Below are positions 14,348 through 26,835 of a stretch of DNA of 64,000 bases, piece by piece. Made by a program: the position numbers and the translations under genes. This DNA comes from an uncultured Acidobacteriota bacterium (GTDB taxonomy: Bacteria > Acidobacteriota > Terriglobia > Terriglobales > Acidobacteriaceae), in the NCBI GenBank assembly GCA_903832295.1, contig CAILAZ010000227.1:12998-76997 (forward strand). Reading direction: 5' to 3'. How positions within the stretch are numbered: position 1 is the first letter of the stretch; each line of letters opens with the position of its first letter. The notes below the pieces were generated by a model. The model was not told the origin of the DNA. It saw nothing but the letters and a program-made list of their open reading frames with translations, and made no database searches.

Positions 14348-15670
14348 ATGCTTTTTGTCGAACTCATCCGCAGAAAGCGCGACGGCAAAGAACTGTCGCG
14401 CGAAGAAATTGAAGCAATCGTCGCCGGATACACCCGTAGCGAATTCCCCGATTATCAGGTCTCCGCCTTCCTGATGGCCGCACTTCTTCGTGGCCTCTCC
14501 CACGCCGAAACCGCAGCCCTCACCAACGCCATGCTCAACTCCGGCAAGGTTCTCGACTTCTCCGAGATCCCCGGCCCCAAAATCGATAAGCACTCCACCG
14601 GCGGCGTCGGAGACAAAACCTCCCTCATCCTTGCCCCCATCGTCGCTGCCGCGGGCGTCAACGTCCCCATGGTCAGCGGCCGCGGCCTCGGACATACCGG
14701 CGGCACCCTCGACAAGCTCGAAGCCATCCCCGGCTTCAACGTCCATCTCACCCTGGACGAATTCCGCCGCATCCTCGCCGCCGTCGGCTGCGCCATGATC
14801 GGCCAGACCGAAGACCTCGCTCCCGCTGACAAAAAGCTCTACTCCCTCCGTGACGTCACCGGAACCGTCGAGAGCCCCTCCCTCATCTGCGCCTCCATCA
14901 TGAGCAAAAAGCTCGCCGAAGGCATTGACGGACTCGTCCTCGATGTCAAAACCGGCTCTGGCGCATTTATGAAGACCCCCGCCGATGCCGAGCACCTCGC
15001 CGAACTCATGGTTGAAACCGGTGAGCGCATGGGCAAAAAGATGGTCGCCCTCATCACGGACATGGATCAGCCTCTCGGCCGCTACATCGGCAACGCTCTT
15101 GAGGTTGTCGAGTGTGTCGAAATCCTCCGCGGAAACTTCGCCGGATCCGAGGATCTCGTCGAACTCACCATCGAACTCTGCGCCTGGATGTTCCTCCTCG
15201 GCGGACGCACCGCCACCCGCGAGGAAGGCCGCGCCCTCGCCTTTGACATCGTCCTCAGCGGCCAGGCTCTCTCCAAATTCCGCGACCTCGTTCGCGAGCA
15301 GGGTGGAGACCTCCGCGCCATCGACGATCTCTCGCTCCTCCCCCAGGCCTCCTTCCGCGATGAAATCCTCGCTCCCGCCTCCGGCTTCCTCACCGCCATT
15401 GAGTGCGAGCGCATGGGAATCGCCGGAGTCATGCTGGGCGGCGGCCGTTTCACCAAGGAAGACGCCGTCGATCCCGCCGTCGGGATCGTTCTCCACCGCA
15501 AGGTGGGCGACGCGGTCTCCCAGGGCGACTCGCTCTGCACTGTCTTCTACAACTCGGCCGAGCGCTTTGCCGCTGCCCGGCCCGTCATCGTCGGAGCCTA
15601 TTCCATCGGCGCTGCCAAACCGCAGCCCCGTGCTCTGGTTCAGAAAGTGATTCAAGGCAAGTCTGTCTGA
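14348..15670 (+). CDS. deoA: thymidine / pyrimidine-nucleoside phosphorylase
   Basis: 440 aa: KHSTGGVGDKTSL, SGRGLGHTGGTLDKLE; full-length family match. Confidence 0.92.
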   Translation: MLFVELIRRKRDGKELSREEIEAIVAGYTRSEFPDYQVSAFLMAALLRGLSHAETAALTNAMLNSGKVLDFSEIPGPKIDKHSTGGVGDKTSLILAPIVAAAGVNVPMVSGRGLGHTGGTLDKLEAIPGFNVHLTLDEFRRILAAVGCAMIGQTEDLAPADKKLYSLRDVTGTVESPSLICASIMSKKLAEGIDGLVLDVKTGSGAFMKTPADAEHLAELMVETGERMGKKMVALITDMDQPLGRYIGNALEVVECVEILRGNFAGSEDLVELTIELCAWMFLLGGRTATREEGRALAFDIVLSGQALSKFRDLVREQGGDLRAIDDLSLLPQASFRDEILAPASGFLTAIECERMGIAGVMLGGGRFTKEDAVDPAVGIVLHRKVGDAVSQGDSLCTVFYNSAERFAAARPVIVGAYSIGAAKPQPRALVQKVIQGKSV

Positions 15671-15701
15671 TTTCTACACTGTTGAATTTGAGAGGGAAGC
15701 A

Positions 15702-16943
15702 ATGGGACGTTTCATTGGAGTGATCGGGCTGATCTTGATGCTGGCCGTCGCCTGGCTGTTTTCCACCAACCGCAAGGCCATCCGCTGGCGTGTCGTCGCC
15801 ACCGGAGTCGCCCTCCAGGTAGTCTTTGCCATCTTCGTCACCAAGGTCGTCTGGGGACAGCGTGCCATCGGTGCTGCCGGTTCCGGCGCCAAGCGCCTCC
15901 TCGACTGCTCTTTCGCAGGCTCCAGATTCGTCTTCGGAGAGGCCGGCAAGCCAGCCGACATCTCCAGTCTCGGATTCATCTTTGCCTTCCAGGTCCTCCC
16001 GGCGATCATCTTCATCGCCGCCTTCTTCGCCATCCTCTACTACTTCGGAATCATGCAGGTCGTCATCCGCGGCATCGCCGTCGTCATGGAAAAAACCATG
16101 GGCGCCAGCGGCGCTGAGTCTCTCAACCTCGCTGCTTCCATCGTCATGGGACAAACCGAGGCTCCGCTCACCATCCGGCCTTTCCTCGCAGGTCTCACCC
16201 AGTCGGAACTCATGGTCGTCATGACCGCCGGCATGGCGCACGTCTCAGGCAGCATCATGGCTGCCTACATCTACGCCGGACGCGTTGCCCCCTCCCATCT
16301 CCTCGCCGCCGTCATCATGACCGCGCCCGGAACTCTCACCATCGCCAAAATGTTCGTCCCGGAGACCGGAGTCCCGGAGACCGCCAGCGGTGCCGTAATG
16401 CCCAAGGAAGAGCGTGCCAGCAATGTCCTCGAAGCCGCCGCCAAGGGAACCAGTGACGGTCTTGGCCTCGCCCTCAACGTCGCCGCCATGCTCATCTCTT
16501 TCCTCTCCATCATCTTCCTCATCAACTCCCTGCTGGGCGGCAGCCACAACTTCTTCGCCGCTCACGGTTTCGCCTGGTTCCCCGCCAGCCTTGAGAAAAT
16601 TTTCGGCGTCCTCTTCGCGCCCATTGCCTTTATCATCGGAGTGCCCTGGCGTGATTGCATGGCCATCGGCAGCCTGCTGGGTACGCGCATGGTCCTCAAC
16701 GAACTCGTAGCCTTCAGCATGTTGGGTGCGCAAAAAGCCGCGCTCGATCCCCGTTCGTTCACCATCGCAACCTTCGCCCTCTGCGGATTCGCCAACTTCA
16801 GCTCCATCGGCATTCAGATCGGCGGCCTCGGAGCCCTCGCCCCATCCCGTCGCGGAGATCTTGCCCGCCTCGGATTCAAGGCCATGATCGCCGGAACCAT
16901 GGCCAACCTCATGTCGGCCTGCATCGTCGGAGTTCTGTTATGA
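15702..16943 (+). CDS. nupC: NupC/CNT-family nucleoside transporter
   Basis: 413-aa polytopic membrane protein with a conserved C-terminal region (GFANFSSIGIQIGG). Confidence 0.9.
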   Translation: MGRFIGVIGLILMLAVAWLFSTNRKAIRWRVVATGVALQVVFAIFVTKVVWGQRAIGAAGSGAKRLLDCSFAGSRFVFGEAGKPADISSLGFIFAFQVLPAIIFIAAFFAILYYFGIMQVVIRGIAVVMEKTMGASGAESLNLAASIVMGQTEAPLTIRPFLAGLTQSELMVVMTAGMAHVSGSIMAAYIYAGRVAPSHLLAAVIMTAPGTLTIAKMFVPETGVPETASGAVMPKEERASNVLEAAAKGTSDGLGLALNVAAMLISFLSIIFLINSLLGGSHNFFAAHGFAWFPASLEKIFGVLFAPIAFIIGVPWRDCMAIGSLLGTRMVLNELVAFSMLGAQKAALDPRSFTIATFALCGFANFSSIGIQIGGLGALAPSRRGDLARLGFKAMIAGTMANLMSACIVGVLL

Positions 16944-17821
16944 GTTCGCACGCAGATGTAAAGCACCTTGCCATGGATGAATACACCCGCGCCGAATCCG
17001 CGGCCAATGTCATCCGCATGCAGCTTTCGCAAAAGCCTCACCTTGGCCTGCCGGAGATCGCCGTCGTTCTCGGCTCCGGTCTCGGCTCCTTTGCTGACGA
17101 ACTCGCCGACCCCATCGCCATCCCCTACGGCTCCATCCCCAACTTTCCCCGCTCCACCGCCATCGGCCACGCCGGGCGCATGGTCATCGGCAAAATCGGA
17201 GACCTCACCGTCGCCGCCATGCAGGGCCGCGTCCACCAGTACGAGGGCTACAGCAGCCGCGAAGCCGCCTTCCCCGTCCGCGTCCTCGCCCGCCTCGGAG
17301 TCAAAAGCCTCGTCCTCACCAACGCCGCCGGAGGCATCAACCCCCTCTACGGCCAGGGCGCCCTCGTCCTCCTCAGCGACCACATCAACCTCCAGGGAAC
17401 CAACCCCCTCAACGGTCCCAATGACGACCGCTTCGGACCCCGTTTCCCCGGCATGAGCGAGGCCTACAACCCAGGCTTCCGCCGTATCGCCCAGGCCGCT
17501 GCCCGCGAACTCGGCTATGAACTCAATGAAGGCGTCTATGCCGCCCTCTCCGGTCCCAGTTATGAAACCCCTGCCGAGATTCGTTACCTCCGCACCATCG
17601 GAGCCGATCTCGTCGGCATGTCCACCGTTCCAGAGGTCATCGTCGCCCGTCACATGGGCGTGGAAGTCCTTGCCATCTCCTGCGTCACCAACATGGCCGC
17701 CGGTTTATCCGATGGCGAAATCAATCACGAAGAAGTTCTGGAGACCGGAGAGCGCGTGCGCGGAACCTTCCTCGCCCTGCTCACCGCCATCCTCCCCCGC
17801 ATCGCCGCTGAGGCAAAATAA
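16940..17821 (+). CDS. punA: purine nucleoside phosphorylase (trimeric PNP/MTAP family)
   Basis: ORF 16655..17821 trimmed to ATG 16940 (ATGA overlap with the nupC stop). Motifs GHAGRMV, LTNAAGG, VGMSTVPEV. Confidence 0.9.
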   Translation: MSSHADVKHLAMDEYTRAESAANVIRMQLSQKPHLGLPEIAVVLGSGLGSFADELADPIAIPYGSIPNFPRSTAIGHAGRMVIGKIGDLTVAAMQGRVHQYEGYSSREAAFPVRVLARLGVKSLVLTNAAGGINPLYGQGALVLLSDHINLQGTNPLNGPNDDRFGPRFPGMSEAYNPGFRRIAQAAARELGYELNEGVYAALSGPSYETPAEIRYLRTIGADLVGMSTVPEVIVARHMGVEVLAISCVTNMAAGLSDGEINHEEVLETGERVRGTFLALLTAILPRIAAEAK

Positions 17822-17864
17822 TCACCCCTCTTTTGGGGCAGTTTTTGGGAAGATCTACATCATC

Positions 17865-18485
17865 ATGAAGCCATATTTCATCGGAGTTGCAGGCCCTTCC
17901 TGCGCAGGCAAAAGTTACCTCGCCGAGCATCTTGCGGAAAAGCTCGACGCTGCCCTCTTTCACCTCGACTCCTACTACCGCGAGCTCGACCACCTCAGCC
18001 TCGTCCAGCGCGCCCATTACAACTTCGACTCTCCTGAGGCCCTCGACTCCAACCTCCTCCTCGACCAGGCCCGTCTCCTCTTCTCCGGAGAAACCATCGC
18101 CCGCCCGGTGTATGACTTCACCACCCACACCCGTACCGGCGAAACCCGGGAGCTCGTACCCCGTCCCTTCGTCATCGTCGAAGGCCTCTTCACCCTCTAC
18201 TGGGAAGACCTTCGCCGCATGCTCGGCACCAAGGTCTTTGTCGATCTCGGCGAAGATACCTGCCTCGAGCGCCGCATCGAGCGCGATATCCGCGAGCGTG
18301 GCCGAACCCGCGAGAGTGTCCTCGAACAGTACGCCACCACCGTCGCCCCCATGGCCCGGCAATATGTCTATCCCGCCCGCGTCCATGCCGATATCGTCGT
18401 CACCGGAGACGATGACATCGCCCGCGAGGTCGAGTCCGTCCTCCATCACGTTCAGCGCGGCGCCCGTGCCGTCTCCAGCTCCTGA
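17865..18485 (+). CDS. udk: uridine kinase
   Basis: ORF 17517..18485 trimmed to ATG 17865 (MKPYFIGVAGPSCAGKSYLAEHL...); P-loop kinase of Udk length. Confidence 0.88.
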   Translation: MKPYFIGVAGPSCAGKSYLAEHLAEKLDAALFHLDSYYRELDHLSLVQRAHYNFDSPEALDSNLLLDQARLLFSGETIARPVYDFTTHTRTGETRELVPRPFVIVEGLFTLYWEDLRRMLGTKVFVDLGEDTCLERRIERDIRERGRTRESVLEQYATTVAPMARQYVYPARVHADIVVTGDDDIAREVESVLHHVQRGARAVSSS

Positions 18486-18486
18486 C

Positions 18487-18557
18487 GGTGGCCCACATCC
18501 GCGTGGTGGCCTACATCCGCTCCTCCTTTGGGCAAATGTGGGGTAGCGAATGTGGGG
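18487..18557 (+). repeat. two tandem 16-mers plus two inverted 8-mers upstream of the phosphoesterase gene
   Basis: GGTGGCCCACATCCGC (18487-18502) and GGTGGCCTACATCCGC (18505-18520), then ATGTGGGG (18536-18543) and ATGTGGGG (18550-18557), the reverse complement of the CCCACAT core. Confidence 0.5.
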
Positions 18558-18654
18558 ACGCCAATGCAGTGCTGGCAGCCCCTTTGCTTTCATCCCGCTG
18601 CAACCTCGCGGGCGTACCATCATTCTTTACTCACAACCTCATCGGAGAAGCCTC

Positions 18655-21408
18655 GTGAAGAACGCGATTGCCGCCCTGATTCTCTCCATCGCCATCCTCA
18701 GCCCCGCCGCTGCCCAGGTCGTTCAGTTCCCCAGCAGCAAGGTGCTCTTCGCGCCCGCTCCCGGCTCTCCCCGCCGCACCAACAGCCTCCCTACGGCCAC
18801 CTCCGTCTCGCCGGACCAGCGCTACGTCGCCCTCCTCAACACCGGCTATGGCACCTCGGAGTCTCATCTCGGCCAGTCCATCACCCTGCTTGACCGCGCC
18901 ACCAACCAGCTCACCGACTTCGCCGACACGCGCCTCCGTCCCAAGTTCAAGCAGACCTACTTCTTCGGACTCGCCTTCAGCCCCAGCGGCACCGAACTCT
19001 ACGCCTCCGTCGCTTCCCTCTATGACCCCGAGGGCAAATCCGATGGCGGCACCGGCAGCGGCATCGCCGTCTATTCCTTCCATGACGGCAAGCTCGCCCC
19101 CTCCCGCTTCCTTAAGATTCCCGCGCCGCCGCTTCCCGCCGGAAAGAAGTTCCCCTCCAGGTCGCCGCTCGCCAAAGATCGCATGATCCCCTATCCCGCC
19201 GGTCTCGCCGTCCTTCCCGCAACCGCCGCCGCGCCTGAGCGCCTCCTCGTCGCCGGAAACCTCAGCGACCAGCTCTGGCTCATCGACGCTCACACCGGCG
19301 ACATCCTCAAGACCTTTGACCTCAGCGGCCAGCACACCGAGTGGATTCCCTCCACCATGCCCTACCAAGTCGCCACCGATGGCGATCACAAGGCCTGGGT
19401 CACTCTCTGGAACACCGCCGCCGTCGCTGAACTCGACCTTGCCACCGGCAGCGTCCTGATCATTGAGCTCGAAAAGCCCAAGGGCTCGCCTACCTCCTCC
19501 GGACACGCCACCGCCCTCCTCTACCACGCCGCCGCCCACAAGCTCTACATCACCCTCTCCAACATGGATGAGGTCGCCGTTCTCGACACCAATATCTACG
19601 CCGTCTCTCACATCGACGTCCGTCTCCCCAAGCAGCGCGCCGGAGGCGCATACCCCAACGCCCTCGCCCTCAGTCCCTCAGGCTCGCTCTACGTCGCAGA
19701 AGCCGGAACCAACTCCGTCGCCGTCCTCTCTCCCGCCGGTGCCGTCACCGGCTTCATCCCCACCGAGTACTACCCCACCGCCCTCGCCTTCGCCTCCGAT
19801 GAGCTCATCATCGCCAGCGGCAAGGGACGCGGCACCGGACCCAACAATGGCCCCCACGATCCCGAGTCCAGAAGAAAATCCTGGAAGTACGTCGCCGAGC
19901 TAACCTACGGCTCCGTCGCTCGCCTCCCGGAGAAGGGAATTGCTGCCGACCTCGCCGCCTATTCTGCCCAGGTCATGCGCAACAACCTCATCGCCGAGAC
20001 CCAGCCCCGCCTCGACTTTCACGCCAGCGGGCACCGCACCTCTCCCATCCACCACGTCATCTACATCATCAAAGAGAACCGGACCTACGATCAGATCTTC
20101 GGCGATCTCGAGGTCGGCGACGGCGACCGCTCGCTCGCCATGTTCGGGGAATCCATCACCCCCAACCACCACAAACTCGCCCGCCAGTTCGGAGTCCTCG
20201 ACAACTTCTACGACTCCGGCGAGATCAGCGGCAACGGACATGTCTGGTCCACCGCCGCCATCACCAGCGACTACACCGAAAAAATCTGGCCCATCAATTA
20301 CCGCAACAACCAGCGCTCCTACGACTTCGAGGGCATGGTCAACGGCGAGTATCCCATCCAGCAGCACATCGCTGACGTCGATGAGCCCTCCACCGGATAC
20401 CTCTGGGCCAACGCCGCCCGCGCTCACATCACCTACCGTCACTACGGAGAGTTCGTCAACACCGAGTGGTGCACGGACCCCGTCGCCGTCAACTCACCCG
20501 CCTCCACCGGAACCACCACCGGCCTCTGCGCCATAAAGTCCGTCGCTCCCGGCTCGCCGCTCCCCGCCGGACTCGGCACAACTCCCGGCAAGCCCAGCCC
20601 GTGGCCCTGGCCCGTCCCGCTCATCGCCAGCAACTTCCCCACCAAGCCTGAGCTGGTCGATCACTTCGATCCCCTCTTCGCCGACTTCCGCCTTGAGTAC
20701 CCCGACCAGTACCGCGCCGACGAATTCCTCCGCGAGTTCCAGTCCTTCGTCTCCGCCCGCCAGCGCCGTGACCGCGCCCACGAGCTTCCCAACCTCGTCG
20801 TCATGCGCCTCCCCAATGACCACACCTACGGAACCCGCCCCGGCATGCCCACTCCCCAGGCCTCCCTCAAAGACAACGACCTCGCCCTCGGCCGCATCGT
20901 GGAAGCCGTCTCCCACTCTCCCTATTGGGATGACACCGCCATCCTCGTCCTCGAAGACGACGCCCAGGACGGCCCCGACCACGTGGACGCCCACCGCTCC
21001 ATCGCTCTCGTCATCAGCAAGTACGCGCCCCGCGAAGCTCAACCCCGCGTCGAGCACGGCTTCTACACCACCGTCCACATGATCCGTACCCTCGAAGACC
21101 TCCTCGGCCTTCCTCCCATGAACCACAATGACTCGCTCGCCTCCCCCATCACCGGCCAGTTCTCCGGCAAAGGCGACCAGCCTCCCTACGAAGCCGACCG
21201 CACTCACGAAACCGACGGCAGCCTCTACGAAGCCAACGCACCCAATAACCGCGACGCAAAGACAAGTTCCAAACTCGACTTCAGCCACGAAGACAAAGCC
21301 GACCCCGCCAAGCTCAACGCAATCCTCTGGCGCGCCACCATGGGGCGTCAGCCAATGCCCAGGGCAAAGCACACCGTCATCCCCGCTTCCAGGGATCACG
21401 ACGACTGA
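18655..21408 (+). CDS. secreted beta-propeller + phosphoesterase (AcpA/phospholipase-C family) fusion protein
   Basis: ORF 18550..21408; the likely GTG start at 18655 gives VKNAIAALILSIAILSPAAAQ (signal peptide). The N-terminal half has lactonase-type propeller repeats (YVAEAGTNSVAVL). The C-terminal half has phosphoesterase motifs IIKENRTYDQIFGD and DDAQDGPDHVDAHRS. Confidence 0.7.
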   Translation: MKNAIAALILSIAILSPAAAQVVQFPSSKVLFAPAPGSPRRTNSLPTATSVSPDQRYVALLNTGYGTSESHLGQSITLLDRATNQLTDFADTRLRPKFKQTYFFGLAFSPSGTELYASVASLYDPEGKSDGGTGSGIAVYSFHDGKLAPSRFLKIPAPPLPAGKKFPSRSPLAKDRMIPYPAGLAVLPATAAAPERLLVAGNLSDQLWLIDAHTGDILKTFDLSGQHTEWIPSTMPYQVATDGDHKAWVTLWNTAAVAELDLATGSVLIIELEKPKGSPTSSGHATALLYHAAAHKLYITLSNMDEVAVLDTNIYAVSHIDVRLPKQRAGGAYPNALALSPSGSLYVAEAGTNSVAVLSPAGAVTGFIPTEYYPTALAFASDELIIASGKGRGTGPNNGPHDPESRRKSWKYVAELTYGSVARLPEKGIAADLAAYSAQVMRNNLIAETQPRLDFHASGHRTSPIHHVIYIIKENRTYDQIFGDLEVGDGDRSLAMFGESITPNHHKLARQFGVLDNFYDSGEISGNGHVWSTAAITSDYTEKIWPINYRNNQRSYDFEGMVNGEYPIQQHIADVDEPSTGYLWANAARAHITYRHYGEFVNTEWCTDPVAVNSPASTGTTTGLCAIKSVAPGSPLPAGLGTTPGKPSPWPWPVPLIASNFPTKPELVDHFDPLFADFRLEYPDQYRADEFLREFQSFVSARQRRDRAHELPNLVVMRLPNDHTYGTRPGMPTPQASLKDNDLALGRIVEAVSHSPYWDDTAILVLEDDAQDGPDHVDAHRSIALVISKYAPREAQPRVEHGFYTTVHMIRTLEDLLGLPPMNHNDSLASPITGQFSGKGDQPPYEADRTHETDGSLYEANAPNNRDAKTSSKLDFSHEDKADPAKLNAILWRATMGRQPMPRAKHTVIPASRDHDD

Positions 21409-21475
21409 CGCGGAACCGCGTGGTCTCCAAAGTCAGTGTTCAAGTGTTTCGGGGGGAGCTGGAAGGTTAATGGAA

Positions 21476-21620
21476 GGGTCAATAGAAACTATGTACTGTT
21501 GGGTCAACCAAATGTCACAAAATCTCTGACCAGATGGTCAATCGTATCGGACTGGGCTCAACCATATACCGAAAGGTAACTACAGCGTTTTCAACGATTG
21601 ACCTCCTCGTCAATCGTTGA
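21476..21620. repeat. GGTCAAY motif array, TGACCA-GA-TGGTCA palindrome and a perfect 12-bp-stem inverted repeat
   Basis: GGGTCAAT 21476-21483, GGGTCAAC 21501-21508, TGACCAGATGGTCAAT 21527-21542, and TCAACGATTGAC-CTCCTC-GTCAATCGTTGA 21591-21620. No flanking U-run on either strand. Confidence 0.5.
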
Positions 21621-21633
21621 ACGCCCTGCGAAT

Positions 21634-21975
21634 CTACCCGGTTCTGCGCGTTTCCGCGGTCATTTCGTTGATTGCCGTGTCCAGTGCGCGCCCCAGGTGG
21701 TTCGCGCGAGCAGTGTATTCGCCCTCAATCGCATCGTACTTGCGTTTCAGCTGGTAGTAGTCATCCACAATGTTGATCGCTGCCAGCACCGCCACCCGCA
21801 GCGAATCCACCGTCGCCGTGTGCTGCGCCACCGCTCTCATCTTGGCATCTACCACCTCGGCCAGCCGCTGAATGTAGGCTGGGTCCGAGCCTCTCAGATG
21901 GTAGCTCTCATCGTAAATCTCCACCCGGATGCTGCTGTTGTCATCGGCCAATCGCTCTCTCGCTTTCATCGCCAA
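21634..21975 (-). CDS. zapA: cell division protein ZapA
   Basis: 113 aa: RVEIYDESYHLRGSDPAYIQRLAEVVDAKMRAV...LRVAVLAAINIVDDY, a typical ZapA layout. Confidence 0.8.
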   Translation of the reverse strand: MAMKARERLADDNSSIRVEIYDESYHLRGSDPAYIQRLAEVVDAKMRAVAQHTATVDSLRVAVLAAINIVDDYYQLKRKYDAIEGEYTARANHLGRALDTAINEMTAETRRTG

Positions 21976-22022
21976 CCCCGCGTTTTACGCACCTTTGCCG
22001 CGCATCTGTGCTCAGCGCCTTC

Positions 22023-22319
22023 CTACTCTTCCAGGATGGCGTCCACATCTCCCAGCAGCTTCTCCATCCGCGTGCGAACCTCGGCCCGCTCCTGCTGTAG
22101 CGCCTGCAATTCCTTGCGCACCGCCTCGGTCTCCCCGGCCTGCGCTTCCATCATCTCGCGCATCGTCACCACCTCCAGCTCCGCTGCCGCCTTCTGCGAG
22201 CGTGCCGCCTTCAGCAGTTCGATGGTGCGGTATATCTTCTCTTCCAGCGCCTGGAAATCGCTGCTGGAGCTCTCAAATGCAAGCTGCCCTTCTGCCATCG
22301 AAGCCATCAGTCCCCTCAT
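22023..22319 (-). CDS. coiled-coil cell-division protein (ZapB-like)
   Basis: ORF 22023..22598 trimmed. Candidate ATGs at 22319, 22307 and 22298 (MRGLMASMAEGQ...). The E/K/Q/A-rich heptad sequence and position directly upstream of zapA support the call. Start uncertain. Confidence 0.55.
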   Translation of the reverse strand: MRGLMASMAEGQLAFESSSSDFQALEEKIYRTIELLKAARSQKAAAELEVVTMREMMEAQAGETEAVRKELQALQQERAEVRTRMEKLLGDVDAILEE

Positions 22320-22344
22320 CTTCTCGAACTTTTGGAAAGCTCGA

Positions 22345-22523
22345 ACTTCCGGAAGTATAACGCAGAAAAGCGCGTTGCAATCAGCGCTTCCCTGCCGCCA
22401 TCCCTGTTCCCCGCTCCCCGCGCAGGGTTGCCGCACCTTCACCAAAGCCGCTGCCCGCGCTAAAATTAGCAATTCCGGAAGAACGCGCAAGAAGTTTTGT
22501 GCAACCCCGCCGCCTCCGGAAGT
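22345..22523. promoter_or_regulatory. three TCCGGAAG-core motifs in the zapB|M48 divergent spacer
   Basis: A perfect 12-bp palindrome ACTTCCGGAAGT 22345-22356 lies next to a minus-strand TATACT -10-like hexamer. TTCCGGAA is at 22473-22480 and TCCGGAAGT at 22515-22523. There is also a direct repeat CTCGAACTT at 22323-22331 and 22340-22348. Confidence 0.4.
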
Positions 22524-22567
22524 TCTAATATGGGTAAGGCTAGCCACAGCCTGAGAAGGCACCGACC

Positions 22568-23614
22568 ATGAGAACAAAGATCGCGCTGCTGCTGACATTG
22601 ACTCTCGCGCTCGTCCCCTACGGGCTAGCCGGCGACAAGACCGATAAACCAGAGAAGACGGACGAGAAGAGCGAGTTGGACTTTCCTCATGACGGGAAGA
22701 CCGACGACGTGAACGCGATTGGGAATCGAAACGTGGGATGCAGCAAGGGACTGGGCAACTGGTACTCGCTGGAGAGCCAGGTCTCCATGGGCAAGAGCTT
22801 CGCCATGCAGGTGGAGCAGAGCGCCAAGGTCATCAACGATCCGGTGGTCAGTGAATACGTCAATCGCATCGCGCAGAACATCGTGCGCAACTCTGACGCC
22901 AAGGTTCCCTTCACCGTCAAGGTGCTCGACGACGATTCAGTAAATGCCTTTGCCTTGCCCGGTGGATACTTCTACGTGCAGAGCGGATTGATTCTTGCCG
23001 CTGACAATGAAGCCGAACTTGCCGGAGTGATGGCGCATGAGATCGCGCATGTAGCTGCATGCCATGCGGCCCGCCAGGTGACTCGCGGCAACCTCGCGAA
23101 TCTCGCATCGATTCCGCTCATCTTCCTCGGTGGCGGCCTGGGTTACGGATTGTATGAAGCTGCCGGCATCGGCGTGCCTCTGACGTTCATGAAGTTCCAG
23201 CGCAACTTTGAAGCTCAGGCAGACTACCTCGGCGTGCAGTATCTCTACGCCAGCGGCTACGACCCGCAGGCCTTCCCGCAGTTCTTCGAAAAAATCCAGG
23301 CGCTCGAAAAAAAGAAGCCCGGCTTTGTAGCCAAGGCCTTTGAGACACATCCGCCTACGCCCGCGCGCATGGAACACACGCAGCATGAGATTGCCACCAT
23401 CCTTCCCGCAAAGCCGCAGTACGTGGAAGACACCTCTGAGTTCCAGGACGTGAAGGCCCGGCTCGCAGCGCTGGAGAATCGCCGCAAGGTTGATCAGGGC
23501 AAAGACAAGGGACCGAGCCTTCGCCGCGCAAACACCAGCCAGGGCGATAGTACAAATCCGGATGACCAGACCAAGAGCACGGATGATCGACCCACGTTAA
23601 AGCGCAGGGATTAA
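22568..23614 (+). CDS. secreted M48-family zinc metalloprotease (BepA-like, no TPR seen)
   Basis: Signal peptide, HEIAHV zinc motif, and C-terminal THPPTPARM. Confidence 0.8.
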   Translation: MRTKIALLLTLTLALVPYGLAGDKTDKPEKTDEKSELDFPHDGKTDDVNAIGNRNVGCSKGLGNWYSLESQVSMGKSFAMQVEQSAKVINDPVVSEYVNRIAQNIVRNSDAKVPFTVKVLDDDSVNAFALPGGYFYVQSGLILAADNEAELAGVMAHEIAHVAACHAARQVTRGNLANLASIPLIFLGGGLGYGLYEAAGIGVPLTFMKFQRNFEAQADYLGVQYLYASGYDPQAFPQFFEKIQALEKKKPGFVAKAFETHPPTPARMEHTQHEIATILPAKPQYVEDTSEFQDVKARLAALENRRKVDQGKDKGPSLRRANTSQGDSTNPDDQTKSTDDRPTLKRRD

Positions 23615-23638
23615 GACTGTAAGCAAGTGGACTCACCG

Positions 23639-23663
23639 AGCCTCGCGGCAACGCGAGGCTTTT
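23639..23663 (+). terminator. intrinsic terminator after the M48 gene
   Basis: AGCCTCGCG (23639-23647), loop GCAA, CGCGAGGCT (23652-23660), then TTTC. Confidence 0.65.
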
Positions 23664-23675
23664 CATCGCGCAGAA

Positions 23676-24533
23676 TCACAGCCCGGCTTCGATGCGTGAT
23701 CGCGGATCGAGAAAATCGCGCATCGCGTCTCCCACAAAATTGAAGGCGAGCACTGCGAGCATCACGGCCCCGGCGGGGAACAGGATGACGTGAGGCGAGT
23801 CGAACAGATGCGATCGTCCGTCGTTCAGCATCGCACCCCAGCTTGGCACCGGTGGAGGAACACCGAGACCCAGAAAGCTCATCGTGCCTTCCGCCAGGAT
23901 CGCTCCCGCCATGCCGATTGCCGCCTGCACAATCACCGGCTGCATGATGTTCGGCAGAATGTGGCGCGCGAGAATCCGGAAGTCGGTGGCGCCCAGGGCA
24001 CGTGCGGCTTCCACATATTCCCGCTCCCGCGCTGCCAGCACCTGCGCGCGCACCAGCCGGGCGTAGCCAACCCACCCCCCGACAATCAGCGCGAGAATCA
24101 GGTTGTAGAGCCCCGGGCCGAGGAAGGCGACGAATGCGATGGCCAGCAGGATTCCCGGAAAGGAGAGAAACGCGTTCATCACGATGACGTTGATGAAGCG
24201 GTCCAGCCTCCCACCGTAATACCCCGCGAGCGAGCCAACCAGCGTGCCCAGCAGCAGCGATCCGGAGACCACGGAGATTCCCACCAGCATGGAGATGCGC
24301 GCACCGAAGAGGATGCGCGAGAGAATGTCGCGCCCAAGTTCATCGGTGCCGAACAGATGATGCGCGGATGGCGCCTGCAGTCGCGCCGCCAGTTCGATGG
24401 ATGCCGGATCACGTGGAGCAACCAGCGGCCCAAAGAGAGCGCATAGAATGAAGAGCACGATGAGCGCTGCTCCGAAGAGCGCGAGCGGGTTGCGAAGAAA
24501 CGCACGCGCCAGATTCGAGGTGGCCGGATTCAT
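23676..24533 (-). CDS. ABC transporter permease (DppC/OppC-like)
   Basis: 285 aa with an N-terminal OppC-type segment and the EAA-loop region AARALGATDFRILARHILPN. Confidence 0.88.
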   Translation of the reverse strand: MNPATSNLARAFLRNPLALFGAALIVLFILCALFGPLVAPRDPASIELAARLQAPSAHHLFGTDELGRDILSRILFGARISMLVGISVVSGSLLLGTLVGSLAGYYGGRLDRFINVIVMNAFLSFPGILLAIAFVAFLGPGLYNLILALIVGGWVGYARLVRAQVLAAREREYVEAARALGATDFRILARHILPNIMQPVIVQAAIGMAGAILAEGTMSFLGLGVPPPVPSWGAMLNDGRSHLFDSPHVILFPAGAVMLAVLAFNFVGDAMRDFLDPRSRIEAGL

Positions 24534-24541
24534 GCGCGCTC

Positions 24542-25459
24542 CTACTGCCTGATCCGCGGATTCAGCGCGGAGTAGAGAATGTCTGTAAGGAAGTTGACCG
24601 CCACGTAGGTGAGGCCGATGCAGAGCAGGCAGCCTTGCACCAGCGAGTAGTCGCGGTTATTGATGGCGCTGATGGTGAGGCGTCCGATGCCTGGCCACGC
24701 GAAGATCGTTTCGGTCACGATGGCGCCCGCCAGCAGCGCGCCAAACTGGAGGCCAATCACCGTGACCACCGGGATCATCGCATTGCGCAACGCGTGCCGA
24801 TAGACAACACTGCGCTCGCTTAGCCCCTTGGCGCGCGCCGTGCGGATGTAGTCCTGGCCGAGTTCCTCCAGCATGCTGGTGCGCACCATGCGCGTGAGAA
24901 TCGCGGCCAGCGAGGCTCCCATCGTAACTGCCGGAAGCACGAGGCTGCGCCACGAGACCGCGCCGGAGACCGGCAGCAGATCGAGCTTGATCGCAAACAG
25001 CAGGATGAGGATCGGCCCCAGTGCAAAATTGGGGAACGAGAGTCCGAGCAGACTGACGAAGCCAAGCACGCGGTCGTCCCACCGATTGCGCCGAGTCGCC
25101 GAGCGAACTCCCGCGGGAATCGAGAGAAGTATCGCCACCAGCAGCGCAGAGAGAGTCAGCGACAGCGTGGCCGGATACGCCTGAACGATCAGGTCCCTGA
25201 CTGGTTTATTGAGGCGGATCGACTTGCCGAGATCGCCGTGGAAGACCCCGCCCCAGTAGCGCAGATACTGCGTGGGAAGAGGCACGTCGAGGTTATAGGC
25301 ATGTCGCGCGGCCTGAATGTCCGCGCCGGCTGCGCCCTCGCCGAGCATCGCCTGGATCGGGTCTCCGGGTACAAGATGGATCAGCAGAAAGACGACGCTT
25401 ACCACCAGCCAGAGGACGGGCAGCATATACCCCATGCGCGTGAGGAGCCGCCGGATCAC
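24542..25459 (-). CDS. ABC transporter permease (DppB/OppB-like)
   Basis: 305 aa, GTG start with a GTGA overlap on the upstream gene stop. EAA-loop region YIRTARAKGLSERSVVYRHALRNA. Confidence 0.88.
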   Translation of the reverse strand: MIRRLLTRMGYMLPVLWLVVSVVFLLIHLVPGDPIQAMLGEGAAGADIQAARHAYNLDVPLPTQYLRYWGGVFHGDLGKSIRLNKPVRDLIVQAYPATLSLTLSALLVAILLSIPAGVRSATRRNRWDDRVLGFVSLLGLSFPNFALGPILILLFAIKLDLLPVSGAVSWRSLVLPAVTMGASLAAILTRMVRTSMLEELGQDYIRTARAKGLSERSVVYRHALRNAMIPVVTVIGLQFGALLAGAIVTETIFAWPGIGRLTISAINNRDYSLVQGCLLCIGLTYVAVNFLTDILYSALNPRIRQ

Positions 25460-26835
25460 TCGCCTACCCCGGCCACGTCGGAGAGCAGATCGACCTTCAC
25501 CGCCCCGACGCGGCGACCTTCCATCTCCATCACCGTGAAGCGCCGCTGCTGGTAAAGAAAGCTGTCGCCCGGTTTAGGAATGCGTTGCAACTTGGCGACG
25601 ACGAATCCCGCGAGGGTTTCAAAGCCCTCGTCGCGCGGCAGCAGCAGATTGTGCTGAGACTCTAAATCCCGGATGTTGAGCGCAGCATCAAGCACCAGCG
25701 AAGCCGGATTGCCGTGATTGGTGTGGGCGACCACATCGAACTCGTCTTCAATCTCTCCGACAAGCTGCTCCAGAACGTCTTCGACGCTGACGACGCCAGC
25801 AGTGGAACCATACTCATCAACGACCACGGCCAAATGGCGGCGGCGATGCTTGAACTCGTCAAGCAGGTCCGGCAGTGGCTTGGTCTCGGGAACAACAAGC
25901 ACGTCGCGCATGATGTGGCGGATGGCGAGCGTGGGTTGCGCCGGCAGCGGGCCGGTGGCGCTCTGCGCGCGCTGCAGGCGGAACTGCATCCAGCGCATCA
26001 GGTCCTTGGAGTAGAGCACGCCGATGATTGCCTCAGGCCCGCGGGCCGCGTCATAAACAGGGATGCGCGAATGCTGCTCCTCCACCACGCGTGAAACCGC
26101 CTCTTCGAGCGGCATGTCGCCGGGCAATGAAAAAATATCGGGGCGTGGCACCATGATCTCACGCACTGTGATCGTCTCTAGATCGAGCGCATTATGGAGA
26201 AGTTCCTGCTGCACGCTGGTGATGAGTCCGTAGCGATGCGAGGCGGTGACGCTGAGCTTCAGTTCCTCGGGCGTGTGCACGCCGCCCTCACGGATGTGAT
26301 TCCAGCCAAAGGAGCGCAGCACGAAGCGCGAAGAAGCAGCCATGGTACGCGTGACCGGACTGAAGATGGTGATGAAGACATCGAGCGGTCCGGCGACGGC
26401 GAGCCCAACCTGCTCTGCCTTTTGCAGTGCGATGGACTTGGGAACGACCTCGCCAAGTATGACGTGCAGGTAGGTGATGGAAGTGAAGGCCAGCACTGTG
26501 GCCAAAGCGTGCGCATAGAGGACGGCGTGCGGCAAGCGCGCGAGTGGGACTTCCAGGAGGTGAGCCATGGACTCTTCGCCGATCCAGCCCAGAGCAAGGC
26601 TGGCCATGGTGACGCCGATCTGGATCCCGTTGAGAACTTCATCGAGCTTGTTGTGGAGTTTGCGGATCGTTCGGGCACCGATCCGGCCCTCGTCTATGAG
26701 CTGTTGCAGGCGCGTGTCGCGGATGCTGACCAGCGCGTATTCGCCGGCTGCAAAGAAGGCGTTGCCCGCCACGAGCAGGATCACGGCGATGATCCGCATA
26801 AGCACATAGGTGAACAAGGCTCGGTCGCTCCCCAA
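25456..26835 (-). CDS. CNNM/TlyC-family protein (DUF21 + CBS pair + CorC_HlyC)
   Basis: 459 aa with N-terminal 4-TM DUF21, a tandem CBS region and a C-terminal transporter-associated domain (FTVMEMEGRRVGAVKV). Confidence 0.85.
   Translation of the reverse strand: MGSDRALFTYVLMRIIAVILLVAGNAFFAAGEYALVSIRDTRLQQLIDEGRIGARTIRKLHNKLDEVLNGIQIGVTMASLALGWIGEESMAHLLEVPLARLPHAVLYAHALATVLAFTSITYLHVILGEVVPKSIALQKAEQVGLAVAGPLDVFITIFSPVTRTMAASSRFVLRSFGWNHIREGGVHTPEELKLSVTASHRYGLITSVQQELLHNALDLETITVREIMVPRPDIFSLPGDMPLEEAVSRVVEEQHSRIPVYDAARGPEAIIGVLYSKDLMRWMQFRLQRAQSATGPLPAQPTLAIRHIMRDVLVVPETKPLPDLLDEFKHRRRHLAVVVDEYGSTAGVVSVEDVLEQLVGEIEDEFDVVAHTNHGNPASLVLDAALNIRDLESQHNLLLPRDEGFETLAGFVVAKLQRIPKPGDSFLYQQRRFTVMEMEGRRVGAVKVDLLSDVAGVGE

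What the first reader, a model, noticed from the sequence alone, without database searches (positions are those of the whole stretch)
21400..22600. Abrupt strand-composition (GC-skew polarity) and GC3 switch at the zapB|M48 divergent spacer
To the left of about 22.3 kb the top strand is strongly C-rich whichever strand the genes are on. Plus-strand genes use almost only C-ending codons (CTC, GCC, GTC, ACC, CCC; e.g. 3265-3975 and 18655-21408). Minus-strand genes (hisD, add, zapA, zapB-like) use G-ending codons (CTG, GCG, GTG).

To the right, the top strand is G-rich. Plus-strand genes prefer G-ending codons, minus-strand genes are mixed C/G/T-ending, and overall GC3 is visibly lower.

Hand counts of single 60-nt lines:
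- Left: 481-540 G14/C27; 3301-3360 G17/C22; 10201-10260 G16/C25; 20701-20760 G13/C28. Sum G60/C102.
- Right: 24601-24660 G21/C16; 27001-27060 G24/C10; 32041-32100 G21/C17; 57001-57060 G18/C16; 62401-62460 G24/C14. Sum G108/C73.

The zapB-like gene (ends 22319) still has left-type codon usage (CTG 7, CTC 0). The M48 gene (starts 22568) has right-type usage. The break therefore lies within the 248-bp spacer.

By the usual rule (leading strand G>C), a C-rich to G-rich switch marks a replication origin. Several things argue against that here. No dnaA, DnaA-box cluster or AT-rich unwinding element is present. Genes on both sides mostly point toward the break, which is terminus-like. GC3 also changes, which an origin or terminus alone does not explain. 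Alternatives are an inversion or recombination breakpoint, a junction with a large foreign block, or an assembly chimera.
Basis: partly seen in the sequence, partly recalled or inferred. Interest (0 to 1): 0.65.

Follow-up and report, generated by a model that had tools for sequence, protein, structure and literature searches.

The report
Extreme strand-bias boundary in an acidobacterial chromosome
In one correctly assembled stretch of an uncultured pond acidobacterium, at least 25 kb of housekeeping genes carry a strand bias about as strong as in animal mitochondria, it ends within a few hundred bases at an ordinary promoter region, and it most likely marks where replication direction changes, although no origin or terminus signal is present.

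Summary
- Top-strand GC skew is -0.24 over 1-22.4 kb and about +0.03 beyond.
- At fourfold-degenerate sites it is -0.75 on the left (C 0.68-0.73, G 0.09-0.15, whichever way the gene points) and +0.14 on the right.
- The main changepoint lies in zapB-to-M48-start (22,071-22,588). A short tail runs to about 25.5 kb.
- The GC/GC3 step is separate, at about 29.4 kb.

**What it is not.**
- Not a chimera: four assemblies span it at 99.7-100% identity and depth is equal on both sides in two runs.
- Not foreign DNA: both sides are core Korobacteraceae genes.
- Not a breakpoint at the spacer: the spacer is orthologous in the relatives that keep the zapA-zapB-M48 triad.
- Not a recognisable origin or dif site.

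**How it arose.** The same orthologs in the same order carry very different skews in relatives (oppC -0.20 here, +0.71 in L009). The bias therefore arises in place by substitution, mainly G>C and G>T on one strand at synonymous sites. zapA and zapB were converted on this lineage; genes right of corC were not.

**Best reading (confidence 0.4).** A lineage-specific boundary of replication direction in a clade with unusually strong, fast-changing strand bias. The tenfold weaker skew on the right is unexplained. Rivals are a translocation scar and a recombination import.

The parts
1..21408 (.). Left block with extreme strand asymmetry. Genes: hisD/G/I, ABC/FtsX, esterase, SIR2, nucleoside deoxyribosyltransferase, thymidine kinase, S1/P1-like, adenosine deaminase, HPRT, DeoC, thymidine phosphorylase, NupC, PNP and a 917/952-aa beta-propeller phosphoesterase. 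The top strand is C-rich whichever way the genes point. The block continues at least 2.8 kb beyond the window start.
   Evidence: Raw skew is -0.24. Fourfold-site skew is -0.61 to -0.92 per gene, with a plateau of -0.85 to -0.95 up to the stop codon at 21,408. Annotation. Extension through hisC/B/H/A at skew -0.21 to -0.31.
13075..14178 (+). Window-specific ORF of 367 aa, with no family match, inserted between DeoC and thymidine phosphorylase. Its skew is much weaker than that of its neighbours.
   Evidence: Fourfold skew is -0.29 (G51/C92), against -0.84 to -0.92 for the flanking genes. It is absent from the salvage clusters of 20 relatives. No Pfam or NCBIfam hit.
21409..21633 (.). Convergent intergenic region between the 952-aa gene and zapA. 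It has GC 0.48, a 20-nt inverted repeat (21583-21628) that looks like a terminator, and GGTCAAT repeats. Most relatives differ in gene order to the left of this point.
   Evidence: skew +0.06. Gene order left of zapA differs in L004, L005, L088-L095 and is shared only with L008.
21634..22319 (-). zapA (21634-21975) and a ZapB-like coiled-coil gene (22023-22319). They still carry left-type skew, converted from the positive state seen in most relatives.
   Evidence: Fourfold skew is -0.49 and -0.42 here. It is +0.44 to +0.78 in L008, L009, L089, L092, L094 and L095; about 0 to +0.3 in L004, L005 and L010; and -0.13/-0.24 in L011. Polarised G>C is 14/28 against C>G 0/5. ZapA family match. No ZapA relative above 81% identity.
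22320..22567 (.). zapB|M48 divergent-promoter spacer, which holds the main changepoint of strand asymmetry. It is orthologous in relatives and has two conserved modules and three TTCCGGAA palindromes.
   Evidence: Changepoints 22,476-22,517 and 22,224 with support 22,071-22,588. Alignment of 11 spacers. Palindromes at 22343, 22473 and 22515.
22568..25459 (.). Intermediate zone: M48 (BepA-like) peptidase, oppC, oppB.
   Evidence: Fourfold skew is -0.17, -0.20 and -0.03. The segment mean is -0.16, with a second changepoint at 25,199. Polarised G>C is 0.29 against C>G 0.09.
25456..64000 (.). Right block of core genes with weak opposite asymmetry. Genes include corC, HlyD-like, DUF374, Ste24-like M48, PBP1A, RuvX, CarD, GreA, 2-oxoacid:ferredoxin oxidoreductase, Alr, DnaB, TyrRS and EF-P.
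   Evidence: Fourfold skew is +0.14 over 25.2-55.8 kb and -0.06 over 55.8-64 kb. Gene for gene it equals the L095 orthologs. Annotation. A separate GC-content step lies at 29,413.

Best explanation
**What it is.** The junction is a real, long-standing boundary between two regimes of strand-asymmetric base substitution. It lies inside one chromosome of an uncultured Candidatus Korobacteraceae (Acidobacteriota) bacterium.

**Nature of the asymmetry.**
- It is of the replication type: it follows the DNA strand, not the direction of each gene.
- It is built in place, mostly by G>C and G>T changes at synonymous sites on one strand.
- In this clade it is unusually strong and changes quickly between species.

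**Most likely mechanism (inferred).** Replication forks always cross the left block, up to and including zapA/zapB, in one direction. DNA to the right of the zapB|M48 spacer is crossed predominantly in the other direction. The spacer region would then be the meeting point of two replichores in this lineage.

**Which kind of meeting point.**
- Terminus-type: gene orientation converges on the break, and T>A sits on the strand that would be leading on each side.
- Origin-type: this is what the classical 'leading strand is G-rich' rule would say.

**Shown versus inferred.**
- Shown: the boundary, its position, that it arose in place by substitution, and the substitution spectrum.
- Inferred: that fork direction is the cause.
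- Unexplained: why the right side is about ten times less skewed, and why no oriC or dif signal is present.
For: 1. **Strand dependence.** Left-block fourfold skew is -0.78 for plus genes and -0.64 for minus genes. This decomposes into a strand term R=-0.71 and a small coding-strand term T=-0.07. The right block has the same T (-0.075) but R=+0.075. GC and AT skews both change sign at the junction: ATskew4 is -0.21/-0.45 on the left and +0.08/+0.12 on the right.
2. **Arose in place.** Gene order is conserved (TP-NupC-PNP..zapA-zapB-M48 in L008; zapA-zapB-M48-oppCB-corC in L004, L005, L009, L010, L094), yet orthologs differ enormously in skew. PNP is -0.87 here and +0.27 in L008. oppC is -0.20 here and +0.58 to +0.71 in L006, L009, L010 and L094.
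3. **A persistent boundary, not a mere juxtaposition.** zapA and zapB are negative here (-0.49, -0.42). They are +0.44 to +0.78 in the six closest relatives, with G>C 14/28 against C>G 0/5 on this branch. corC and HlyD are at baseline, and genes beyond 28 kb equal their L095 orthologs.
4. **Vertical descent.** The terminal branch for left-block proteins is ordinary: 0.074 against 0.066-0.081 for neighbours. NupC identity tracks M48 identity across the three MAGs that carry both loci. No ZapA closer than 81% exists among 5.8 billion proteins, so no donor lineage has been sampled.
5. **One genome.**
6. **Gene orientation.** Genes converge on the break (left 14 plus/6 minus, right 13 plus/24 minus; gene list). 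In strongly skewed segments of the clade, 134 genes against 78 lie on the C-rich strand.
Against: 1. **Unequal magnitude.** A simple origin or terminus should give equal and opposite skew. Here R is -0.71 against +0.075. The right block matches L095 gene for gene, so it does not look 'in transit'.
2. **No site signals.** There is no DnaA-box cluster, dnaA or AT-rich unwinding element. There is no dif-like XerCD site by the proteobacterial/firmicute consensus. The spacer is an ordinary conserved promoter region that does not switch in L009 or L095.
3. **Patchy skew in relatives.** In 20-kb samples of relatives the skew occurs in patches of 5-20 kb, which is not the classical two-replichore picture.
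4. **Not a purely neutral equilibrium.** Intergenic DNA is much less skewed than fourfold sites (-0.22 against -0.75). Lineage-specific amino-acid replacements are not directional. The same 0.3 ratio is seen in relatives.
5. **Terminus geometry conflicts with the usual rule.** It would require a C-rich leading strand.
6. **Limited context.** Only about 67 kb of a 90-kb contig is visible. Whole-replicon skew could not be computed.
Confidence: 0.4

Rival explanations
1. Pseudo-shift point left by a rearrangement. The nucleoside-salvage block, which was already C-rich on its coding strand, was translocated next to the zapA-zapB-M48 triad, which was G-rich on that strand. Each block still carries the skew it acquired at its earlier position, and that skew has been partly worn down since.
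For: - In the nearest relatives the salvage cluster is already negative (-0.3 to -0.6 in L096, L097, L103, L105). The triad and Opp region is positive (+0.4 to +0.78) in the same orientations.
- The salvage|zapA adjacency is derived. It is seen only here and in L008. Most relatives have GT2, RR-HD and a 225-aa gene to the left of zapA.
- Flanks of the triad are highly variable, so rearrangement is frequent in the clade.
- The steepest single drop is at the end of the 952-aa gene, 21.4 kb.
- Reviews state that inversions and transfer create pseudo-shift points (PMC3269016).
Against: - The rearrangement junction is at 21.41-21.63 kb. Yet zapA and zapB, to its right, have been converted from about +0.5 to about -0.45.
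- The left block is more extreme than in any relative. It looks maintained or intensified, not decaying.
- A uniform regime after the juxtaposition predicts uniform erosion. Instead the change falls from zapAB to zero by about 28 kb.
- L008 has the same adjacency but is positive on both sides.
Confidence: 0.22
2. Recombination mosaic. The left block, including zapA and zapB, was imported by homologous recombination from an unsampled, strongly skewed sister lineage in which the whole locus is replicated in the opposite direction. The right-hand crossover fell in the ultra-conserved promoter modules of the spacer.
For: - The break falls in a spacer that holds 17- to 40-nt modules nearly identical across species. 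These would be good crossover substrates.
- ZapA is an outlier (75-81% identical to all relatives, which are 81-92% identical to each other), while M48 nests with L089, L092 and L094 at 94%.
- Strongly skewed relatives exist: L009 has R of about +0.5 over 20 kb.
- The left block's symmetrised tetranucleotide signature is closest to L009 (r=0.89), against 0.80-0.81 to the window's own right side.
- The right block resembles weakly skewed genomes (L004, L005, L095).
Against: - No donor-like ZapA or 952-aa protein was found among 5.8 billion proteins; best hits are 81% and 78%.
- Minus-type and plus-type versions of the locus would differ at most third positions, which strongly inhibits homologous recombination over 25 kb or more.
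- Left-block protein branch lengths and identity levels fit vertical descent.
- Depth on the two sides is the same in two samples, so there is no sign of strain heterogeneity.
Confidence: 0.15
3. A one-sided, region-specific mutational process that starts at a fixed boundary. One possibility is a polar replication-fork barrier: forks from the right stop here, while forks from the left sometimes pass. Another is recurrent one-ended breaks with long resection that always exposes the same strand of the left block.
For: - Full-strength plateau on one side, near-zero skew on the other, and a sharp edge with a tail of about 3 kb.
- The spectrum is dominated by loss of guanine from one strand (G>C 0.61, G>T 0.14, against 0.02 and 0.05 for the complements). 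That fits damage to an exposed single strand.
- L010 also steps at the same spacer, and several relatives show 'strong | about 0' boundaries rather than plus/minus boundaries.
Against: - No barrier protein or motif, nuclease or relaxase has been identified.
- A mixed-direction model predicts equal GC4 on both sides, but GC4 falls from 0.82 to about 0.67.
- There is no decay of skew with distance over 25 kb.
- It is entirely inferential.
Confidence: 0.12
4. Replication origin (oriC) in the zapB|M48 spacer or in the 21.4-21.6 kb intergenic region.
For: - The polarity (C-rich to G-rich on the top strand) is the classical origin polarity.
- Both GC and AT skews would fit a purine-rich leading strand as in Firmicutes.
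- The 21409-21633 region has the lowest GC (0.48) and short repeats.
Against: - No DnaA-box enrichment anywhere in 64 kb.
- No dnaA, dnaN or parAB.
- The spacer is an orthologous promoter region in relatives that do not switch there.
- The repeats at 21.5 kb form a terminator-like hairpin between convergent genes.
- About 70% of genes on both sides would be head-on to replication.
Confidence: 0.05
5. Assembly chimera or a mixture of strains joined at a conserved sequence.
For: - Unitigs of both runs break at about 22,378-22,407, and unitig depths differ locally in X1 (2.4 against 5.7).
- Related taxa co-occur in the samples (loose ends).
Against: - L001 spans 20,151-26,036 at 99.7% identity with no gap. 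L002 and L003 span 21,939-25,942 at 99.98%. A fourth assembly has the same gene order.
- There are no loose ends or alternative joins in the spacer at 80% stringency or above.
- The unitig break lies in the species-specific middle of the spacer, not in a shared module.
- Mean depth left against right: X1 4.40 against 3.97, X2 4.42 against 4.69.
- The coding-strand term T is identical on both sides.
Confidence: 0.02

Closest known systems
GC-skew shift point at a bacterial replication terminus (dif / fork-fusion region)
   Same: - An abrupt sign change of strand-dependent GC and AT skew that does not depend on gene direction.
- Genes on both sides point toward the break.
- T>A on the strand that would be leading on each side.
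- The switch sits in an intergenic region.
- Skew shift points normally coincide with dif (PMC3317982).
   Different: - The polarity is opposite to the usual G-rich leading strand.
- No dif-like XerCD site was found.
- The magnitude is about tenfold different on the two sides.
- The position is not conserved in close relatives with the same gene order.
- Fourfold skew of -0.75 is, to my knowledge, well above values reported for bacterial chromosomes.
GC-skew shift point at oriC
   Same: The C-rich to G-rich polarity on the top strand is the textbook origin signature.
   Different: - No DnaA-box cluster, dnaA/dnaN or unwinding element.
- Genes would be mostly head-on to replication.
- The spacer is a conserved promoter region.
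Pseudo-shift points / GC-skew anomalies caused by inversions, translocations or transfer of biased DNA (described in PMC3269016)
   Same: - The clade shows frequent rearrangement around the triad and patchy skew.
- The salvage block was joined to zapA by a derived rearrangement.
- Its sign agrees with the sign it has in the nearest relatives.
   Different: - The main changepoint is about 0.9 kb to the right of the rearrangement junction, inside conserved gene order.
- zapA and zapB have been converted after the juxtaposition.
- The block is more extreme than in any relative.
Strand asymmetry of animal mitochondrial genomes
   Same: - Comparable magnitude at fourfold sites (own knowledge).
- One strand is almost stripped of G.
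- Codon choice is dictated by which strand a gene lies on.
   Different: - Mitochondrial bias is attributed to transitions: deamination giving C>T and A>G on the exposed strand.
- Here twofold (transition-only) sites are only mildly affected, and the exchange is G to C/T, a transversion type.
- This is a 62% GC bacterial chromosome.
Strand-specific codon usage in Borrelia burgdorferi and other strongly skewed bacteria (own knowledge)
   Same: Genes on the two strands of one region use different synonymous codons because of replication-linked bias.
   Different: - In those genomes the bias is replichore-wide, symmetric about the origin and G+T-rich on the leading strand.
- Here it is one-sided within the visible 67 kb, richer in C+T than in G+A, and changes between congeners.

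Membership tests
Replication origin (oriC) | Cluster of DnaA boxes (TTATCCACA-like) | tested here: not met
   5 matches with at most 1 mismatch in 64 kb, against 6.2 expected. There is one at 21,761 inside zapA and none in the spacer.
Replication origin (oriC) | AT-rich unwinding element and usual neighbours (dnaA, dnaN, parAB, rpmH and others) | tested here: not met
   The spacer has GC 0.57. The lowest-GC stretch (21409-21633, GC 0.48) is a terminator-like hairpin between convergent genes. None of these genes is in the window.
Replication origin (oriC) | Skew polarity C-rich to G-rich on the top strand | tested here: met
   -0.24 to +0.03 on all sites, and -0.75 to +0.14 on fourfold sites.
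Replication terminus / dif | 28-bp XerCD dif site at the shift point | tested here: not met
   No match to CATAAT-N6-TTATGTNAA with up to 3 mismatches. The only match to ATTATGTNAA with up to 1 mismatch is at 35,221. Caveat: the consensus comes from other phyla, and no acidobacterial dif model was available.
Replication terminus / dif | Convergent gene orientation toward the shift point | tested here: met
   Left 14 plus/6 minus genes, right 13 plus/24 minus. Clade-wide, 134 against 78 genes lie on the C-rich strand in strongly skewed segments, though these are not independent.
Replication terminus / dif | Skew polarity G-rich to C-rich on the top strand (leading strand G-rich) | tested here: not met
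   The polarity is the reverse. AT skew (T>A on the left, A>T on the right) would fit a terminus.
Replication terminus / origin | Located at the extremum of whole-replicon cumulative skew, or at a coverage trough or peak | not testable with these tools
   Only about 67 kb of a 90,111-bp contig is visible. The runs hold it at about 5x and only as contigs.
Horizontally acquired island / foreign block | Integrase or transposase, tRNA target, flanking repeats, genes absent from relatives | tested here: not met
   No tRNA or Rfam hit. No mobile-element domains. Both blocks are core genes with orthologs at 75-94% in many Korobacteraceae. Branch lengths are ordinary.
Inversion/translocation breakpoint | Break of conserved gene order at the compositional boundary | tested here: inconclusive
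   There is no break at the main changepoint, where the spacer is orthologous in 10 relatives. Gene order does break 0.9 kb to the left, at 21.41-21.63 kb, where the steepest local drop occurs.
Assembly chimera | No independent support across the join, or unequal depth on the two sides | tested here: not met
   Four assemblies span it. No branches. Depth is equal in X1 and X2.

The most novel reading that the evidence does not exclude
A subclade of Korobacteraceae may carry a previously undescribed kind of strand asymmetry with four features.
- It is driven by loss of guanine (G>C and G>T transversions) from the strand exposed during replication or repair, not by cytosine deamination.
- It reaches mitochondrion-like strength.
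- Its polarity is inverted, so the gene-rich strand, presumably the leading strand, is C-rich.
- It acts in domains with sharp, one-sided edges.

In this reading the zapB|M48 boundary is a polar fork barrier or a recurrent break or restart site, not a classical origin or dif terminus.
Probability: 0.15. Interest if true: 0.85.

Novelty: new variant of a known kind. Interest (0 to 1): 0.62.

Why it matters
**It is a natural experiment on how strand asymmetry is made.**
- GC-skew shift points are the standard computational marker for bacterial origins and termini.
- Here a very strong shift point sits in conserved gene order with no origin or dif signal.
- Its two sides are unequal, and it is built by transversions rather than the textbook deamination transitions.
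- The same genes carry skews from -0.9 to +0.8 in closely related species, so the bias turns over about as fast as synonymous sites do.

**Practical consequences.**
- Skew-based origin or terminus calls, composition-based binning, and chimera or island detectors will misread such genomes. Several contigs of this clade already sit in MAGs with the wrong taxonomic label.
- Codon-usage-based inference of expression is meaningless in a block where the DNA strand dictates codon choice.

**Open question it could address.** If the leading strand is really C-rich here, that would be a rare exception to a near-universal rule. It would also point to guanine-oxidation repair as a determinant of genome composition.

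Tried and rejected
**Readings rejected**
- **Chimera or strain mixture.** Rejected by spanning contigs, unbranched unitigs and equal depth on both sides.
- **Origin.** The DnaA-box scan was negative.
- **dif.** Two consensus scans were negative.
- **Structured RNA or tRNA at the boundary**, for example 6S RNA downstream of zapA. None was found at the gathering threshold or at E<=1.
- **Foreign island.** No mobile-element genes, and all genes are core.

**Tests that gave no clear answer**
- **Acceleration of left-block proteins.** Not seen; branch lengths are ordinary.
- **Directional amino-acid replacement driven by the bias.** Not seen.
- **Phylogenetic discordance between left and right as proof of recombination.** Inconclusive, because only three MAGs carry both loci and their identities scale consistently.
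- **Polarity test with tRNA gene orientation.** Only one tRNA turned up in 31 loci.
- **Closer relatives of the left block or of ZapA.** None exist in the protein collection; the best hits are 78% and 81%.
- **Literature on extreme or inverted skew in Acidobacteria.** Nothing relevant was found.
- **Mixed fork-direction model for the weak right side.** Weakened by the GC4 difference between the blocks.

**Failed or corrected steps**
- My first crude ORF caller mis-called several genes and understated the skew (-0.58). Curated gene calls give -0.75.

Full report
**1. The observation**

Sliding windows show top-strand GC skew of -0.15 to -0.32 from base 1 to about 22 kb, and -0.07 to +0.15 beyond. 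A two-segment fit on all bases puts the break at 22,476-22,517.

- The left block's top strand is A 0.07, C 0.73, G 0.09, T 0.11 in plus-strand genes, and A 0.05, C 0.68, G 0.15, T 0.13 in minus-strand genes.
- The GC skew is therefore -0.78 and -0.64. In the right block it is 0.00 and +0.15.
- Individual genes are striking: PNP G9/C134, FtsX G10/C212, the 952-aa gene G40/C418, hisG (minus strand) top-strand G11/C132.
- Codon tables are mirror images on the two strands. Leu is CTC 0.75/CTG 0.11 on plus genes and 0.01/0.84 on minus genes. Val, Ala, Pro and Thr behave the same way.

Segmentation of the fourfold-site series gives:

| Segment | Fourfold GC skew |
|---|---|
| to 22,224 (support 22,071-22,588) | -0.75 |
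| to 25,199 | -0.16 |
| to 55,803 | +0.14 |
| to the window end | -0.06 |

The fine profile is a plateau of -0.85 to -0.95 up to the stop codon of the 952-aa gene. After that come zapA/zapB at about -0.45, M48/oppC at about -0.2, oppB at about 0, and corC at about +0.3.

AT skew changes sign at the same place. The block continues at least 2.8 kb left of the window, through hisC/B/H/A.

GC content changes at 29,413 (0.620 to 0.568), and GC4 stays 0.74-0.85 from zapA to DUF374.

**2. It is one real molecule**

- The M48 protein is encoded on four other public contigs with the same neighbours.
- L001 matches window 20,151-26,036 at 99.7% without gaps. L002 and L003 match 21,939-25,942 at 99.98%.
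- Two pond-metagenome runs from different studies hold the region. Their unitigs tile the junction at 100% identity. At 80% stringency or above there are no joints, branches or loose ends in the spacer.
- Both runs have a unitig break at about 22,378-22,407. This lies in the species-specific middle of the spacer, and coverage is only about 5x.
- Mean depth left against right is 4.40 against 3.97 in X1 and 4.42 against 4.69 in X2. The differences are within about 1 SE.
- The small coding-strand component of the skew is identical on both sides (-0.07), as expected for one genome.

**3. Who it is and what the genes are**

Homologs identify Candidatus Korobacteraceae (Acidobacteriota, Terriglobia). 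The source contig is 90,111 bp.

- Left block: hisD/G/I, an ABC/FtsX pair, esterase, SIR2 and a nucleoside-salvage cluster. The cluster holds deoxyribosyltransferase, thymidine kinase, an S1/P1-like nuclease, adenosine deaminase, HPRT, DeoC, thymidine phosphorylase, NupC and PNP. After it come a beta-propeller phosphoesterase, zapA and a ZapB-like coiled-coil gene.
- Right block: BepA-like M48 peptidase, oppC/B, corC, an HlyD-like gene, DUF374, Ste24-like M48, PBP1A, RuvX, CarD, GreA, 2-oxoacid:ferredoxin oxidoreductase, Alr, DnaB, TyrRS, EF-P and others.
- There is no integrase, transposase, Xer, DnaA, tRNA or Rfam RNA in the 64 kb.

**4. Nothing structural marks the boundary**

- DnaA boxes are not enriched: 5 against 6.2 expected.
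- No dif-like site is found.
- The spacer aligns with the spacers of ten relatives. It shares two conserved promoter-like modules with them, AGTATAACGCAGAAAAG beside zapB and GAAGTTTTGTGCAACCC...GGAAGTTCTAATATG beside M48, and has no insertion.
- The 21,409-21,633 region is a convergent intergenic region with a terminator-like 20-nt inverted repeat.

**5. Comparison with relatives is the key evidence**

- The zapA-zapB-M48 triad is present in all sampled relatives except L006/L007, where zapA and zapB are missing. Its flanks vary a great deal.
- The adjacency of the salvage cluster to zapA is derived. It is seen only here and in L008. In 20 other Korobacteraceae MAGs the cluster lies elsewhere, for example 180 kb from the triad on a 4.43-Mb contig.
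- With gene order and orientation held constant, fourfold skews of the same orthologs differ enormously:

| Genes | This window | Relatives |
|---|---|---|
| Salvage genes | -0.6 to -0.92 | -0.3 to -0.6 in the nearest (L096, L097, L103, L105); about 0 to +0.27 in L008; +0.1 to +0.5 in L107, L110, L114 |
| Triad and Opp genes | -0.49 to +0.20 | +0.4 to +0.78 in L006, L008, L009, L089, L092, L094 (L010 +0.03 to +0.59); about -0.2 to +0.3 in L004, L005, L011 |
| Genes beyond 28 kb | +0.09 to +0.29 | match L095 gene for gene |

The skew is therefore produced in place by substitution and turns over on the time scale of species divergence. Twenty-kilobase samples of relatives show patches of strong and near-zero skew with their own abrupt steps. 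L010 has one at this very spacer.

**6. Substitution spectrum**

I polarised changes on the window's branch against the majority state of relatives at fourfold sites.

| Region | G>C | C>G | Other pairs |
|---|---|---|---|
| Left block | 112/185 | 4/251 | G>T 0.14 vs C>A 0.05; G>A 0.01 vs C>T 0.08 |
| zapA + zapB | 14/28 | 0/5 | |
| M48 to oppB | 0.29 | 0.09 | |
| corC / HlyD | 0.20 | 0.10 | |

- zapA and zapB show the full left-block pattern. M48-oppB is mildly shifted. corC/HlyD are at the background level expected from the relatives' own G-enrichment.
- Twofold sites, where only transitions are silent, are only mildly shifted: top-strand C/(C+T) is 0.78 and G/(G+A) is 0.67.
- The asymmetry is therefore transversion-type loss of G from one strand. 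It is not the classical deamination signature, and the top strand is pyrimidine-rich (C>>T>G>A).

Two caveats apply:
- Intergenic DNA is much less skewed (-0.22), and lineage-specific amino-acid replacements are not directional.
- The same intergenic-to-fourfold ratio of about 0.3 holds in strongly skewed relatives, so it is a property of the clade's process.

**7. History of the two sides**

- For left-block proteins the window's terminal branch is ordinary: 0.074 against 0.066-0.081.
- NupC identity to relatives scales with M48 identity in the three MAGs that carry both loci.
- ZapA is an outlier. Its best hit among 5.8 billion proteins is 81%, whereas M48 has many hits at 92-95%.
- No donor-like lineage has been sampled. 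Phylogenetic tests for recombination were inconclusive.

**8. Interpretation**

- **A simple rearrangement scar does not fit.** zapA and zapB lie to the right of the rearrangement junction and have been converted. The left block is more extreme than in any relative. The amount of change falls to zero by about 28 kb instead of being uniform.
- **Import by homologous recombination is possible.** The conserved spacer modules would be natural crossover sites. However, it needs an unsampled donor, and it needs recombination between sequences that differ at most third positions.
- **The best fit is a persistent, lineage-specific boundary of the strand-asymmetric regime.** I read this as a change of replication direction.
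- **Its polarity is ambiguous.** The GC rule says origin. Gene orientation says terminus (left 14 plus/6 minus, right 13 plus/24 minus), as does AT skew. Clade-wide, 134 against 78 genes lie on the C-rich strand in strongly skewed segments, though these counts are not independent.
- **Terminus geometry would imply a C-rich leading strand.** The guanine-loss spectrum would make that plausible if the exposed strand loses G.
- **The tenfold weaker skew on the right remains unexplained** (R=+0.075 against -0.71). A polar-barrier or mixed-direction model could produce it, but the lower GC4 on the right weakens that model.

I therefore give the replichore-boundary reading 0.4, the translocation scar 0.22, recombination import 0.15, a one-sided new process 0.12, a classical origin 0.05 and a chimera 0.02.

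**9. Comparison with what is known**

Skew shift points at oriC and dif, and pseudo-shift points caused by inversions or transfer, are well described (PMC3269016; PMC3317982). This case differs in five ways:
- its magnitude (own knowledge: bacterial fourfold skews this large are not reported);
- its transversion-type spectrum;
- its unequal sides;
- its location in conserved gene order without site signals;
- its rapid turnover among congeners.

It is best filed as a new variant of a known kind, with moderate to high interest.

Noticed in passing
window 13075-14178: A 367-aa ORF with no Pfam or NCBIfam match sits between DeoC and thymidine phosphorylase. It is absent from that position in 20 relatives. 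Its fourfold skew is only -0.29, inside a block at -0.85. It is probably a more recent insertion and could serve as an internal clock for the bias.
   Followed up: partly
window 29413 (about 29.3-29.5 kb): GC content steps from 0.620 to 0.568 here, about 7 kb to the right of the skew switch, near the DUF374/Ste24-like M48 boundary. GC4 then declines gradually from about 0.8 to about 0.65 over the next 15 kb.
   Followed up: partly
window 23676-28173 versus L095 11050-11430: The oppC-oppB-corC-HlyD block lies between M48 and the YnfA-like/DUF374 genes in the window. In L095 it is missing, and M48 is followed directly by the 113-aa gene and DUF374. This is an indel or rearrangement immediately right of the junction.
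   Followed up: no
window 22343-22353, 22473-22481, 22515-22525: Three copies of a TTCCGGAA palindrome (GAACTTCCGGA / TCCGGAAGTTC) lie in the divergent promoter spacer. The first and third overlap modules that are conserved in relatives. They are probably binding sites for a regulator of zapB and/or M48.
   Followed up: partly
window 17822-18654: An 833-bp stretch between PNP and the 917-aa phosphoesterase gene has no convincing ORF (skew -0.22, GC 0.61). A gap of similar size exists in L097 and L103. It could hold an unannotated small gene or a regulatory RNA.
   Followed up: no
window 20154-20241 versus the end of L001: Thirteen differences within 90 nt, all spaced by multiples of three (i.e. 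one codon position). Nine of them have C in the window and T or G in L001. This is a co-occurring variant haplotype with less C-biased codons in the same gene.
   Followed up: no
That is unexpected for a pond acidobacterium. It may reflect a conserved gene or contamination of human-sample runs.
   Followed up: no
L103 (DATLJC010000070.1); also L118, L129, L131, L135: These contigs carry NupC loci and sit in MAGs labelled Saccharimonadales, Verrucomicrobiia, Gammaproteobacteria or Arcobacter. L103 has 88% NupC identity and full synteny with the window, so it is clearly Korobacteraceae-like and its bin label is likely wrong. The other four were judged only on a 58-66% NupC match and were not examined further.
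   Followed up: no
window 55803-64000: A third, small changepoint: fourfold skew drops from +0.14 to -0.06 for the last 8 kb (GT21b, PMT, TyrRS, EF-P and following genes).
   Followed up: no
L006/L007 at about 4.6-5.4 kb; L105 at about 12 kb; L092 at about 13 kb; L010 at 7.3 kb: Other Korobacteraceae loci have their own abrupt steps between near-zero and strong skew (0.15-0.25 on all sites). Most fall at intergenic regions, and L010's is at the same zapB|M48 spacer.
   Followed up: partly
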